From NCBI GenBank assembly GCA_049598575.1, contig JBMYNT010000005.1, positions 1 through 56,467 on the forward strand: a DNA stretch of 56,467 bases, in the 5' to 3' direction. The notes under the pieces were generated by a model. The model searched no databases. It was not told where the DNA came from and saw only the letters and a program-made list of their open reading frames with translations. Position 1 is the first letter of the stretch. Every line of letters begins with the position of its first letter. Positions 33,575-43,907 of the stretch are shown piece after piece. The position numbers and the translations under genes were made by a program. This stretch comes from Candidatus Poseidoniaceae archaeon (lineage in GTDB: Archaea > Thermoplasmatota > Poseidoniia > Poseidoniales > Poseidoniaceae).

Positions 33575-34369
33575 ATGCTAGGTCTACAAGGAAAAACCGC
33601 TGTCGTGTTCGGAGTTGCAAGCGAAGATTCGATTGCATGGGCCATTTGTCAACAACTCGCAGAGGCAGGTGCAGACCTGTTCTTAGGCTATCAAAAGCGC
33701 TTCATGTCTCGCGTTTTCCAACTCAAAGACAAACTTCCTGCGATCAAGGGATTCTATCCACTCGATGTTGCTCAAGACGATACGACTCGGGAGTTCTTCG
33801 ATGAGTTTTCCAAAGAGCATCCTGGAAGGACAATTGACGTTCTTGTTCATGCGATTGGCTTCGCCCCACGAAGTTGTTTCGATCGACCCATTCTGTTCGT
33901 CGAAGATGCTGACATCAATACGGCGATGACCATTTCTGCGAACTCTTTGCAACGCTGTCTGAAATTTGCCATGCCTCACCTCAGTGAAGGCTCCTCAACC
34001 ATTACACTCACGTACGCAGCTTCGACTCGATTTGTTCCATCGTACGGAATCATGTCGATGGCAAAAGCAGCGCTTGAGTGCTGGACGCGTGAACTTGCTT
34101 GTCATTTGGGGCCTCACGGGCATCGAGTCAACAGCATCTCGTCAGGACCTATTCGAACCATCGCAGCTTCAGGAATTCCGGGCTTCGACCGCATCCTTGA
34201 TCACGTTGAGGCCAACGCTCCATTGCGAAGGAACGTCAATCAAAACGACGTAGCAGGAACGACGTTGTGGCTTGCAAGCCCGCTCTCTGCAGGCGTAACT
34301 GGACAATGCATCCATGTCGATGCAGGCTATTCCATCACCATGGTGCCACAGAGCATCATGGACGTATGA
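33575..34369 (+). CDS. fabI: Enoyl-ACP reductase (FabI-type SDR)
   Basis: GVASEDSIAWAI, LVHAIGFAP, YGIMSMAKAALE, RVNSISSGPIRTIAASGI, HVDAG; GAGGGG SD at 33564-33569. Confidence 0.9.
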   Translation: MLGLQGKTAVVFGVASEDSIAWAICQQLAEAGADLFLGYQKRFMSRVFQLKDKLPAIKGFYPLDVAQDDTTREFFDEFSKEHPGRTIDVLVHAIGFAPRSCFDRPILFVEDADINTAMTISANSLQRCLKFAMPHLSEGSSTITLTYAASTRFVPSYGIMSMAKAALECWTRELACHLGPHGHRVNSISSGPIRTIAASGIPGFDRILDHVEANAPLRRNVNQNDVAGTTLWLASPLSAGVTGQCIHVDAGYSITMVPQSIMDV

Positions 34370-34378
34370 GGTGAACAC

Positions 34379-43135: not shown

Positions 43136-43907
43136 TGGTGATTCGTTGAAGGCGACCTTTCGTTGGCTTGAACTCGAGGATGGACCACGCTGTCTCCTCG
43201 CAACGTGTCCAATCTCTGAACATAACGCTGCTCAACTACAGTTCATCGATTGGTATGAGGTGAACACCTTCAAAACGCAAAAGAGAACCAATGAACATCT
43301 CTCTGCACGTTGGCTACTTGAGCAGGCGTTGGAAGAATGGGGAGGGCTTGATTGCTCTCATCTTGCCATTGCGAGAACGGATGAGAGAGCACCCTACCTT
43401 CAAGCAATTCAGGGGTTGTGGATACAACCTCGACTGCCGAGCATCTCGCTCTCGCACAGCCAAGATCTTGCAGCCGTTGCACTCATTGAACAAGGTTGGA
43501 CCGTTGGTGTCGATGCTGAACCTTTCGATCGACCACCTGCTCCAACCGTGTACGATATGATGGCAAGAGGTGAGGAACTTGAACAACTCAGGGAAGGTAC
43601 ATTGGATGCATTATGGGCATGGACTTCCAAGGAAGCCATCCAAAAGGCCGCTCGGAAAGGGATGCATCTCAATCCCAGAGATATTGTTCTAAATGCAGGA
43701 GAAATCAAAAATAAAATACCAATTGAAAATTTAATTTTCCAATTGGAAAATCTTTCCAGCAAGGAGTATCAAATCACCCTTGCATGGGGGCAGGATGTTC
43801 ATCCAATCAGGAGTCCAGAGGATGATTTACTCGATGCAACACGGGAAGCGATGCAGAACGGTGACGATTGGAGTGTAGGTTGTTCAACGGTCCGTAAGAA
43901 TGCATGA
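43125..43907 (+). CDS. Sfp-type 4'-phosphopantetheinyl transferase
   Basis: SISLSHS, VGVDAE, WTSKEAIQKA (WxxKEAxxK); TTG start overlaps the PKS end. Confidence 0.87.
   Translation: MNADGDSLKATFRWLELEDGPRCLLATCPISEHNAAQLQFIDWYEVNTFKTQKRTNEHLSARWLLEQALEEWGGLDCSHLAIARTDERAPYLQAIQGLWIQPRLPSISLSHSQDLAAVALIEQGWTVGVDAEPFDRPPAPTVYDMMARGEELEQLREGTLDALWAWTSKEAIQKAARKGMHLNPRDIVLNAGEIKNKIPIENLIFQLENLSSKEYQITLAWGQDVHPIRSPEDDLLDATREAMQNGDDWSVGCSTVRKNA

What the first reader, a model, noticed from the sequence alone, without database searches (positions are those of the whole stretch)
33575..43907. Complete type I PKS/fatty-acid megasynthase operon in an archaeal chromosome
Seen: tightly coupled fabI, a 2918-aa KS-AT-KS-ACP3-KR-DH gene and an Sfp PPTase, with an archaeal GAGGTGA SD, among archaeal housekeeping genes and with no integrase, transposase or obvious compositional break. 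Together they supply a full reductive elongation cycle. Known: archaea build isoprenoid ether lipids and generally lack ACP-dependent FAS/PKS; tandem ACPs with this layout recall PfaA-type secondary lipid synthases. Inference: an ACP-dependent pathway for long straight-chain lipids or polyketides in (probably Marine Group II) archaea, bearing on the lipid divide. The product is unknown, and I cannot confirm whether it has already been described.
Basis: partly seen in the sequence, partly recalled or inferred. Interest (0 to 1): 0.95.

Follow-up and report, generated by a model that had tools for sequence, protein, structure and literature searches.

The report
Type I lipid synthase in archaea
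A three-gene cluster kept by most Marine Group II archaea encodes a bacterial-style giant chain-building enzyme with its own reductase and activating enzyme, machinery that archaea are generally said to lack.

Summary
Window 33575-43907 holds three tightly coupled genes. They are a FabI-type enoyl reductase, a 2918-aa KS-AT-KS-ACP3-KR-DH megasynthase and an Sfp-type PPTase.

The cluster is not a chimera:
- The contig carries archaeal Orc1/Cdc6, a TBP-like gene and DUF359.
- The same gene order recurs in three Poseidoniales families.
- The gene was found in 194 of 301 genomes of the order, on contigs up to 2.04 Mb, and in a single-cell genome.
- fabI is found and missing in the same genera as the megasynthase.

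The cluster matches the "Type R" PfaA-like secondary lipid synthase of Shulse & Allen 2011 (KS-MAT-"CLF"-ACP3-6-KR plus PPTase). That family is known from bacteria and its product is uncharacterised. Related genes also occur in at least four other Thermoplasmatota families.

Two points are new here:
- The middle "CLF" keeps Cys-His-His, so it looks like a second active KS.
- All carrier domains have Thr where carrier proteins have the phosphopantetheinylated Ser. This holds family-wide.

The most likely product is a long, largely saturated straight acyl chain. This is inferred, not shown. Marine BGC surveys already count archaeal T1PKS, and fatty-acid genes in MGII have been discussed. I found no paper that analyses this cluster.

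The parts
33575..34369 (+). FabI-type enoyl-(ACP) reductase, 264 aa, acting in trans as the ER
   Evidence: PF13561, E 4e-70, full length. The best NCBIfam hits are FabI equivalogs at 223 bits, below their cut-offs. A Y157-x6-K164 motif is present. It lies next to the megasynthase in 12 of 12 Poseidoniales loci and shows the same genus-level presence and absence. dN/dS against L008 is 0.013.
34368..34374 (+). Shine-Dalgarno-like GAGGTGA, 4 nt before the megasynthase ATG and overlapping the fabI stop
   Evidence: The motif is not enriched in the window (8 matches against 9.6 expected); only its position is suggestive.
34379..43135 (+). 2918-aa iterative type I megasynthase, KS1-AT-KS2-ACP3-KR-DH
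   Evidence: The reading frame is intact in all full-length relatives. dN/dS is 0.040.
34436..35662 (+). KS1 (aa 20-428), with Cys227, His361 and His400
   Evidence: PF00109 and PF02801; residues read.
36284..37267 (+). Acyltransferase (aa 636-963), with GHSLG and HAFH motifs
   Evidence: PF00698, E 2e-36. TIGR00128 fabD, 192 bits, below its cut-off. HAFH is at aa 836. That HAFH indicates malonyl specificity is recalled knowledge, not tested here.
37814..39178 (+). KS2, the middle ketosynthase called 'CLF' in the Type R description. It keeps Cys1351, His1499, Lys1534 and His1539.
   Evidence: PF00109, 52 bits. These four residues are invariant in 18 of 18 archaeal sequences (alignment A1; positions checked).
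39518..40411 (+). Three tandem carrier domains (39518-39721, 39866-40072, 40211-40411). Each has the motif LGIDTVKQAE, with Thr1744, Thr1861 and Thr1974 at the position of the phosphopantetheinylated Ser.
   Evidence: PF00550 three times. These are the only PP-binding matches in the genome. The Thr aligns with the Ser of the PigH ACPs (5y08) and with the modified residue of B. subtilis ACP (1f80). The codons are ACG, ACC and ACG.
41519..41947 (+). Ketoreductase (aa 2381-2523), with YAAAN at 2491
   Evidence: PF08659, E 1e-23; motif read.
42191..43096 (+). PKS-type dehydratase (aa 2605-2906), with the motif HxxxGxxxxP at His2633
   Evidence: PF21089 and PF14765; motif read.
43125..43907 (+). 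Sfp-type 4'-phosphopantetheinyl transferase, 260 aa, the only PPTase found in the genome
   Evidence: PF01648, 28.9 bits and 30.3 bits, both above the cut-off of 25. It is the only ACPS match in G000. G128, D130, E132, W166, K169, E170 and K174 are invariant in 11 of 11 Poseidoniales homologues.

Best explanation
The three genes form a self-contained, vertically inherited operon of Poseidoniales (Marine Group II). The operon encodes an iterative type I synthase of the 'Type R' PfaA-like secondary-lipid-synthase family.

Proposed mechanism (all steps inferred):
1. The co-encoded Sfp-type PPTase arms the three tandem carrier domains, apparently on Thr rather than Ser.
2. The AT loads malonyl units from malonyl-CoA.
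3. Two catalytically intact ketosynthases (KS1 and KS2) share priming and elongation.
4. KR and DH process each beta-keto group.
5. The separately encoded FabI reduces the enoyl intermediate.
6. Repeated cycles give a long, straight, largely saturated acyl chain on the carrier.

The cluster encodes no thioesterase, so release is most likely by transfer to an acceptor elsewhere in the cell.

Bacterial hosts of this family have their own FAS II reductase and PPTase. The archaeal host lacks both, and this explains why fabI and the PPTase travel with the megasynthase.

Shown here: gene content, catalytic residues, archaeal host, conservation, co-distribution and purifying selection. Inferred: every enzymatic step, modification of the Thr, and the product.
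For: Domains and catalytic residues.

Archaeal host and vertical inheritance:
- Archaeal marker genes lie on the same contig.
- The gene order big ORF, o30072, TBP-like, TatD, fabI, megasynthase, PPTase is conserved in families f1, f2 and f3.
- The megasynthase was found in 33 of 41 relatives.
- KS2 was found in 194 of 301 genomes of the order: f1 144/149, f2 2/2, f3 47/149.
- The 19 Poseidoniales-type KS2 rows form one side of a branch with SH-aLRT 100.
- Named records include a single-cell genome, L065.
- Contigs carrying it reach 2.04 Mb.
- Near-identical DNA is held by 16 runs at half the sampled words or more; the 20 holders come from 12 studies.

Functional coupling of fabI:
- It is adjacent in 12 of 12 Poseidoniales loci.
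- It was found in 78 of 121 genomes, and in none of 42 genomes from genera g5, g7, g8, g10, g25 and g26. These are the same genera that lack KS2: 0 of 98 genomes.

Self-sufficiency. In G000 (90% complete) the only PP-binding, ACPS and true KS matches are those in this cluster. By contrast, 0 of 19 bacterial loci carry a fabI within about 8 kb.

Purifying selection: dN/dS is 0.013 for fabI and 0.040 for the megasynthase.

Family: the architecture plus a downstream PPTase equals Type R. Bacterial relatives are named Roseiflexaceae, Kouleothrix, Chloroploca, Myxococcales and Bryobacteraceae.

Possible malonyl-CoA supply: a biotin carboxylase at 18695-20035 and three carboxyltransferases in the genome.
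Against: - No product, activity or modification has been measured for any member of this family that I could find.
- The attachment residue is Thr in all three carrier domains. I know of no precedent for phosphopantetheinylation of Thr, and one search returned 0 papers.
- There is no release enzyme in the cluster.
- The cluster was not found in six genera of family f3.
- The PlsC-like acyltransferase is present in 284 of 301 genomes and in 26 of 26 genera, including those without the megasynthase. The synthase therefore cannot be the sole source of whatever PlsC uses, and no link to membrane lipids is shown.
- A lipid survey of MGII-dominated water reported no unusual intact polar lipids (PMC6962369, passages seen).
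- Contigs from RNA libraries cover the cluster, but they cover its neighbours equally, so transcription is not shown here.
- FabI and PfaA score below NCBIfam's curated cut-offs.
Confidence: 0.55

Rival explanations
1. Same enzyme, but a partly reduced product. FabI, or the DH, acts only in some cycles. The result would be a long-chain hydroxy, keto or diol alkyl chain for an envelope glycolipid or another specialised lipid, as heterocyst-glycolipid synthases make, rather than an ordinary fatty acid.
For: The family sits among the PfaA/HglE-like 'secondary lipid' synthases. The cluster is dispensable in several genera. It is not co-distributed with PlsC. No thioesterase is present.
Against: A complete KR, DH and ER set is present. 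fabI is strictly co-inherited with the megasynthase. No glycosyltransferase or tailoring gene is conserved next to the cluster across the three families.
Confidence: 0.25
2. A bioactive or pigment polyketide, that is, classical secondary metabolism. This is how antiSMASH-type surveys file it (T1PKS).
For: BGC surveys count T1PKS as the second most common class in marine archaeal genomes (PMC10304266). They also report polyketide synthase transcripts from Thermoplasmatota MAGs (PMC9902471).
Against: It is a single iterative module with full reduction. There are no cyclase, thioesterase, tailoring or resistance genes. It sits at a fixed chromosomal position among housekeeping genes in three families. 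It is nearly universal in family f1, 144 of 149 genomes.
Confidence: 0.08
3. An orthologue of the PUFA synthase PfaA that makes EPA- or DHA-type polyunsaturated fatty acids.
For: The best NCBIfam model is TIGR02813 omega_3_PfaA at 899 bits. Tandem ACPs are present.
Against: The score is below the cut-off of 1010.1. No PfaC-type KS-CLF-DH2 exists, because the only KS domains in the genome are the two in this gene. There is no FabA-like DH domain in the protein. An extra KS2 lies between AT and the ACPs. The ER is a FabI.
Confidence: 0.03
4. A bacterial contig mis-binned into an archaeal MAG, or a chimeric assembly.
For: The nearest non-archaeal relatives are bacterial at 44-50% identity.
Against: Archaeal Orc1/Cdc6, TBP-like and DUF359 genes are on the same contig. 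Flanks are conserved in three families. Contigs reach 2.04 Mb. A single-cell genome carries it. Two DNA runs from other studies cover all 30 of 30 bins across both borders with no joints. There is no GC break.
Confidence: 0.01
5. A decaying relic whose carrier domains are dead because the Ser is lost.
For: Thr replaces the Ser in all three ACPs.
Against: Frames are intact in all full-length relatives. dN/dS is 0.04. The Thr motif is conserved across archaeal and bacterial members: 123 of 150 and 113 of 117 proteins. A dedicated PPTase with invariant catalytic motifs is retained.
Confidence: 0.03

Closest known systems
'Type R' secondary lipid synthase gene cluster (Shulse & Allen 2011, PLoS One, PMC3098273; passages read)
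   Same: One pfaA homologue with KS-MAT-'CLF'-ACP(3-6)-KR, followed by a PPTase gene. The product is unknown. The paper reports it in Acidobacteria, Elusimicrobia and Chloroflexi (Roseiflexus). The bacterial relatives found here are named Roseiflexaceae, Kouleothrix, Chloroploca, Bryobacteraceae and Myxococcales and share the KS2 and the ACP motif.
   Different: The paper mentions no archaea (0 occurrences). The archaeal cluster adds a cis-encoded fabI, which 0 of 19 bacterial loci have nearby. The 'CLF' keeps Cys-His-His here. The paper does not mention the Thr at the ACP site (0 occurrences of serine or threonine). I did not compare directly with the five genomes named in the paper.
PfaA of the bacterial omega-3 PUFA synthase (pfaABCDE; NCBIfam TIGR02813)
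   Same: N-terminal KS-AT, tandem ACPs with an LGID-x-[IV]K motif, a C-terminal KR and PKS-type DH, and a dedicated Sfp-type PPTase (PfaE).
   Different: The score is 899 bits against a cut-off of 1010.1. An extra active KS lies between AT and the ACPs. There are no PfaB, PfaC or PfaD partners (for KS domains). The ER is a FabI-type SDR. The carrier site is Thr, not Ser.
Heterocyst glycolipid synthase HglE/HglC ('Type F' in PMC3098273)
   Same: A PfaA-like iterative synthase without FabA-type DH/isomerase domains. It makes a long, mostly reduced alkyl chain for a specialised envelope lipid.
   Different: Its KS-CLF-AT is on a separate protein. It is cyanobacterial. It comes with glycosyltransferase and reductase partners, which are not conserved here.
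ACP-independent archaeal fatty acid synthase complex of Sulfolobus acidocaldarius (bioRxiv 10.1101/2024.07.05.601840; passages read)
   Same: It would serve the same end, de novo straight-chain acyl synthesis in an archaeon.
   Different: That system is CoA-dependent and built from thiolase/DUF35, an SDR and MaoC proteins. [quoted passage not shown] The present cluster is a carrier-protein-based type I megasynthase with its own PPTase.

Membership tests
Type R secondary lipid synthase (Shulse & Allen 2011) | A single pfaA homologue with the order KS-MAT-second KS/'CLF'-ACP(3-6)-KR | tested here: met
   Pfam domain order. Three ACPs.
Type R secondary lipid synthase (Shulse & Allen 2011) | A PPTase gene directly downstream | tested here: met
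   43125-43907, overlapping the megasynthase stop. Motifs are conserved.
Type R secondary lipid synthase (Shulse & Allen 2011) | KS groups phylogenetically with the Type R organisms (Koribacter, Solibacter, Elusimicrobium, Roseiflexus) | tested here: inconclusive
   Those five genomes were not retrieved. Relatives named Roseiflexaceae and Bryobacteraceae share the KS2 at 44-50% identity. The KS2 tree puts all members apart from the KS1 paralogues.
PUFA synthase PfaA (TIGR02813) | Score above NCBIfam's curated cut-off | tested here: not met
   899 bits against 1010.1.
PUFA synthase PfaA (TIGR02813) | Partner PfaC (KS-CLF-DH2) in the genome | tested here: not met
   The full PF00109 matches in G000 are only the two in this gene. 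The two other matches are short pieces at 23-31 bits. The genome is 90% complete.
FabI enoyl-ACP reductase | Full-length match to the enoyl-ACP reductase SDR family | tested here: met
   PF13561, E 4e-70, profile positions 1-236 of 236.
FabI enoyl-ACP reductase | Score above an NCBIfam FabI equivalog cut-off | tested here: not met
   The best is 223.3 bits against a cut-off of 391.
FabI enoyl-ACP reductase | Catalytic Tyr-x6-Lys (motif recalled) | tested here: met
   Y157GIMSMAK164.
Sfp-type 4'-phosphopantetheinyl transferase | ACPS superfamily domain above the Pfam cut-off | tested here: met
   28.9 bits and 30.3 bits, against a cut-off of 25.
Sfp-type 4'-phosphopantetheinyl transferase | N-terminal pseudo-repeat domain (4PPT_N / AASDHPPT_N) | tested here: inconclusive
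   22.9 and 22.2 bits, below the cut-off of 27. No NCBIfam hit.
Sfp-type 4'-phosphopantetheinyl transferase | G-x-D-x-E and W-x-x-K-E-A motifs (recalled) | tested here: met
   G128, D130, E132 and W166, K169, E170 are invariant in 11 of 11 sequences.
Acyl carrier domain (PF00550) | Match to PP-binding | tested here: met
   Three matches at 31.8-39 bits, above the cut-off of 20.8.
Acyl carrier domain (PF00550) | Ser at the phosphopantetheine attachment site | tested here: not met
   Thr1744, Thr1861 and Thr1974 align with the Ser of solved ACPs. Whether Thr is modified cannot be tested with these tools.

The most novel reading that the evidence does not exclude
Poseidoniales, and several other Thermoplasmatota lineages, run a self-contained, carrier-protein-dependent type I fatty-acid synthase. 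Its carrier domains are phosphopantetheinylated on threonine by a dedicated PPTase. Its straight acyl chains enter G3P-based ester or mixed ether/ester membrane lipids. If so, the most abundant surface-ocean archaea would naturally straddle the lipid divide, and a whole family of synthases in both domains would use a carrier chemistry not described so far.
Probability: 0.2. Interest if true: 0.9.

Novelty: new member of a known kind. Interest (0 to 1): 0.66.

Why it matters
[quoted passage not shown] Yet the most abundant planktonic archaeal order keeps, under strong purifying selection, a complete carrier-based megasynthase with its own reductase and PPTase.

MGII genomes also lack G1P dehydrogenase but have G3P dehydrogenase and PlsC-like genes (PMC6461757; PMC6962369; GpsA and PlsC homologues). 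Their membrane lipids are still unknown.

The cluster gives a concrete, clonable three-gene target for testing whether these archaea make straight-chain lipids. Independently, the family-wide Thr at the carrier attachment site poses a clear biochemical question that a single mass-spectrometry experiment could answer.

Tried and rejected
Chimera or mis-binning was rejected. A PUFA-synthase orthologue was rejected. The swf sponge PKS family (PMC3908369) has a different architecture (KS-AT-DH-ER-KR-ACP) and is irrelevant.

Co-distribution of a PlsC-like acyltransferase with the megasynthase was tested and not found: 284 of 301 genomes and all 26 genera have PlsC. No support for a specific PlsC link came from this.

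PlsY (PF02660) was not found in G000, which is 90% complete. One of the three carboxyltransferases lies next to MeaB, so it is probably a propionyl-CoA carboxylase rather than an acetyl-CoA carboxylase.

RNA evidence is weak. Contigs of two RNA-library runs (X17, X18) cover 27 and 28 of 30 bins at 95-99% identity. They cover neighbouring genes as well, and they are contigs, not raw reads. This does not show transcription.

Root and donor are unresolved. The KS2 tree was rooted on KS1 paralogues over a branch of 2.52 changes per column. The apparent nesting of named bacteria inside archaeal diversity is therefore not trusted. A split of all archaea against all named bacteria is not rejected (p-AU 0.337). 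In one search I added four rows titled only 'Euryarchaeota' or 'Thermoplasmatota archaeon' (UBA59, UBA182, UBA558, XB_MAG72) to the Poseidoniales group after seeing the tree, so that grouping is partly post hoc. Four bacterial loci with poor KS2 extraction (L092, L093, L095, L102) were dropped from the trees, and L094, L106, L108 and L109 were never entered.

My first strict ACP regex missed the bacterial 'DTVKQAETF' variant: 76 of 117 proteins scored 'none'. The loose pattern corrected this.

Literature. Among the papers listed, none describes this archaeal megasynthase. I read passages only (find mode) of 10.1101/2025.10.24.684404, PMC8049014, PMC6336850, PMC8430335, PMC10308959, PMC7852524, PMC3098273, PMC3908369, PMC6461757, PMC10304266, PMC9902471, PMC6962369, PMC9723583 and 10.1101/2024.07.05.601840.

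Villanueva et al. 2017 (PubMed 27112361) is the source of the claim of 'bacterial-like fatty acid genes in MGII'. It and PMC4478702 are not held. I therefore cannot say whether that paper already lists this gene. Supplements are closed. Those of Rinke 2018 (Figs S13-S15 and Supplementary Text), PMC10304266 (Table S2) and PMC9902471 (Supplementary Data) may name these clusters.
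Full report
**What is there.** The window holds three co-directional ORFs at 33569/33575-34369, 34379-43135 and 43125-43907.
- The first is a full-length match to the enoyl-ACP reductase SDR family (PF13561, E 4e-70). It has a Tyr157-x6-Lys164 motif. NCBIfam ranks FabI equivalogs first, but at 223 bits, below their cut-offs.
- The second, 2918 aa, carries these domains in order:
  - KS at aa 20-428;
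  - AT at aa 636-963;
  - a second, divergent ketosynthase from aa 1146;
  - three PP-binding domains;
  - KR at aa 2381-2523;
  - a PKS-type DH at aa 2605-2906.
- The third matches the ACPS superfamily just above its cut-off. It keeps G128/D130/E132 and W166/K169/E170 in 11 of 11 homologues. From memory these are the Sfp-type metal and CoA motifs.

The genes are tightly coupled. GAGGTGA overlaps the fabI stop 4 nt before the megasynthase ATG, and the PPTase frame overlaps the megasynthase stop by 11 nt.

**Whose DNA it is.** The same contig carries Orc1/Cdc6, a TBP-like ORF and DUF359. None of the 33 ORFs scanned hits an integrase or transposase family. GC is flat across the cluster. Close homologues are named Candidatus Poseidoniaceae, Poseidonia sp., Poseidoniales and Thalassarchaeaceae, with generic product names.

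The megasynthase is present in 24 of 24 genomes of the same genus, 2 of 2 of a second family and 6 of 14 of a third. In a wider draw, its KS2 part was found in 194 of 301 genomes of the order: f1 144/149, f2 2/2, f3 47/149. Among genomes at least 90% complete, the count is 48 of 66. It was not found in 98 genomes of six f3 genera with the smallest genomes: g5 0/18, g7 0/22, g8 0/11, g10 0/24, g25 0/14, g26 0/9.

The flanks (big ORF, o30072, TBP-like, TatD upstream) are the same in all three families. The records carrying the gene include a single-cell genome (L065) and contigs up to 2.04 Mb. Sixteen public runs hold half or more of the gene's sampled words; the 20 holders come from 12 studies. 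Two DNA runs from other studies cover all 30 bins across both borders with no joints. Chimerism is excluded.

Against the most distant genus member fetched, dN/dS is 0.013 for fabI and 0.040 for the megasynthase. dS is near saturation, so these values are rough.

**fabI belongs to the system.** fabI is adjacent in 12 of 12 Poseidoniales loci. It was found in 78 of 121 genomes (f1 58/59, f2 1/1, f3 18/60). It was found in none of 42 genomes from the six genera that lack the megasynthase.

In G000 (90% complete), the only PP-binding, ACPS and genuine KS matches are those of this cluster. The host therefore has no FAS II to lend a carrier, a PPTase or a reductase. None of 19 bacterial loci of the family has a fabI within the fetched flanks, and 2 of 12 loci from other Thermoplasmatota do. 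I read the archaeal operon as the bacterial core made self-sufficient.

**What family it is.**
- A search with the KS2 region alone over 1.84 billion representatives gave 540 proteins at E 1e-30 or better.
- I tabulated 70 of the best 149. Nearly all that are not fragments show KS1-AT-KS2-ACPn-KR/DH.
- Their named relatives are Chloroflexota (Kouleothrix, Promineofilum, Roseiflexaceae, Chloroploca), Myxococcales/Deltaproteobacteria and Thermoanaerobaculia.
- In the genome collection, the 19 bacterial loci among the best 80 include Bryobacteraceae, Acidimicrobiia, Ardenticatenaceae and Solirubrobacterales, at 44-50% identity.

This is the architecture that Shulse & Allen (2011) named the Type R secondary lipid synthase. 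Their definition is a pfaA homologue KS-MAT-CLF-ACP(3-6)-KR plus a downstream PPTase, found in Koribacter, Solibacter, Elusimicrobium and Roseiflexus, product unknown (passages). That paper contains no mention of archaea. NCBIfam's PfaA model is the best hit but falls below its cut-off (899 against 1010.1 bits). No PfaC-type partner exists, so this is not a PUFA synthase.

**Beyond MGII.** In a draw of 401 Thermoplasmatota genomes at least 80% complete, 128 have the KS2 gene. These include unnamed families f9 (8/8), f18 (15/15), f27 (3/3) and f28 (18/19). Families f6 (0/48), f15 (0/59), f4 (0/10), f5 (0/15) and f21 (0/10) do not. Twelve of 12 loci fetched from these other families have the same domain order.

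In a KS2 tree, the 19 Poseidoniales-type rows are one side of a branch (SH-aLRT 100; four of these rows were assigned post hoc). A split of all archaea against all named bacteria is not rejected (p-AU 0.337). The root and the direction of transfer are unresolved.

**Two features not in the literature I could search.**
- First, the middle domain called CLF keeps Cys1351, His1499, Lys1534 and His1539. These are invariant in 18 of 18 archaeal sequences. It looks like a second working ketosynthase.
- Second, all three carrier domains read LGIDTVKQAE. Thr sits where solved ACPs have the modified Ser.

The Thr is a hallmark of the family:
- All 346 motif hits in the 120 proteins listed are Thr.
- At least one G-x-D-T motif occurs in 123 of 150 KS2-search representatives. 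Seven have Ser only and 20 have none, mostly fragments.
- It occurs in 113 of 117 relatives of a bacterial member.
- Two Thalassarchaeaceae-side loci (L010, L013) have Ser in all copies.

A text search for a Thr-for-Ser carrier site found nothing. Whether the Thr is phosphopantetheinylated is the key open point.

**Likely function.** The AT has GHSLG and HAFH, which from memory indicate malonyl specificity. This fits unbranched chains. The KR has YAAAN and the DH has HxxxGxxxxP. With FabI this is a full reductive cycle, with no FabA-type isomerase. I therefore expect a long, largely saturated chain.

There is no thioesterase in the cluster. A 4HBT thioesterase lies 9.5 kb upstream and was not examined further.

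The genome has a GpsA-type G3P dehydrogenase, a GGGP synthase and three PlsC-family acyltransferases, but no PlsY. This agrees with published views that MGII could make mixed lipids (PMC6461757; PMC7852524; PMC6962369). However, the PlsC-like gene is present in 284 of 301 genomes, including the genera without the megasynthase. That leaves no specific link, and the synthase is dispensable. This fits a 'secondary' lipid at least as well as a bulk membrane role.

**Novelty.**
- Marine BGC surveys already count T1PKS as the second largest class in 3293 archaeal genomes (PMC10304266).
[quoted passage not shown] Neither survey says what these genes are.
- The MGII comparative papers I could search do not contain the words polyketide or acyl carrier.
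- Villanueva et al. 2017 and all supplements were out of reach, so priority is not settled.

I rate this a new, archaeal member of a known but uncharacterised family.

Noticed in passing
window 39608-39610, 39959-39961, 40298-40300; also proteins P0122-P0387: Thr replaces the phosphopantetheinylated Ser in every tandem carrier domain. It does so across the whole KS-AT-KS-ACPn-KR family in both archaea and bacteria (motif G[IV]DTVKQAE). Two Poseidoniales loci (L010 and L013) have Ser in all copies instead, so all copies switch together.
   Followed up: partly
window 18695-20035 (+): A biotin carboxylase (three domains; CPSase_L_D2 E 3e-62) lies 13.5 kb upstream of the cluster. It is a possible part of the malonyl-CoA supply. 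Three carboxyltransferases lie elsewhere in the genome, one of them next to MeaB.
   Followed up: partly
window 23552-24067 (-): A 171-aa 4HBT hotdog thioesterase lies 9.5 kb upstream of fabI. It is a candidate chain-release enzyme. Its conservation next to the cluster in other families was not checked.
   Followed up: no
window 24164-30058 (+) and 47617-53229 (-): Two giant ORFs flank the region. One is 1964 aa with no Pfam family; its C-terminal part is conserved next to the cluster in L010 and L012 at about 30% identity. The other is a 1870-aa S8 subtilase.
   Followed up: no
L012 (G026:C4) 4829-10771 and 10435-13341: In this family-f3 genome the megasynthase is split into two ORFs (1981 aa and 969 aa) between the carrier region and the KR. 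The number of ACP motif matches ranges from 1 to 3 in the Poseidoniales loci and reaches six GIDTV motifs in another Thermoplasmatota locus (L029).
   Followed up: partly
window 13541-14911 (-): An Orc1/Cdc6 gene lies near a local turn in cumulative GC skew at about 16-17 kb. A replication origin may lie nearby.
   Followed up: no
window 30072-30881 and 30782-31411 (+): The ORF with a weak TBP match (E 7e-7, half a TBP repeat) overlaps the preceding 269-aa ORF by 100 nt. Both are conserved upstream of the cluster in three families. The gene starts may be miscalled.
   Followed up: no
G000:C9 (L111 3093-4727 and 4767-6347): A 544-aa protein with a PlsC-type acyltransferase domain sits directly upstream of a carboxyltransferase and near MeaB. 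A second 541-aa paralogue is on C3. Their long non-catalytic parts have no Pfam family.
   Followed up: no
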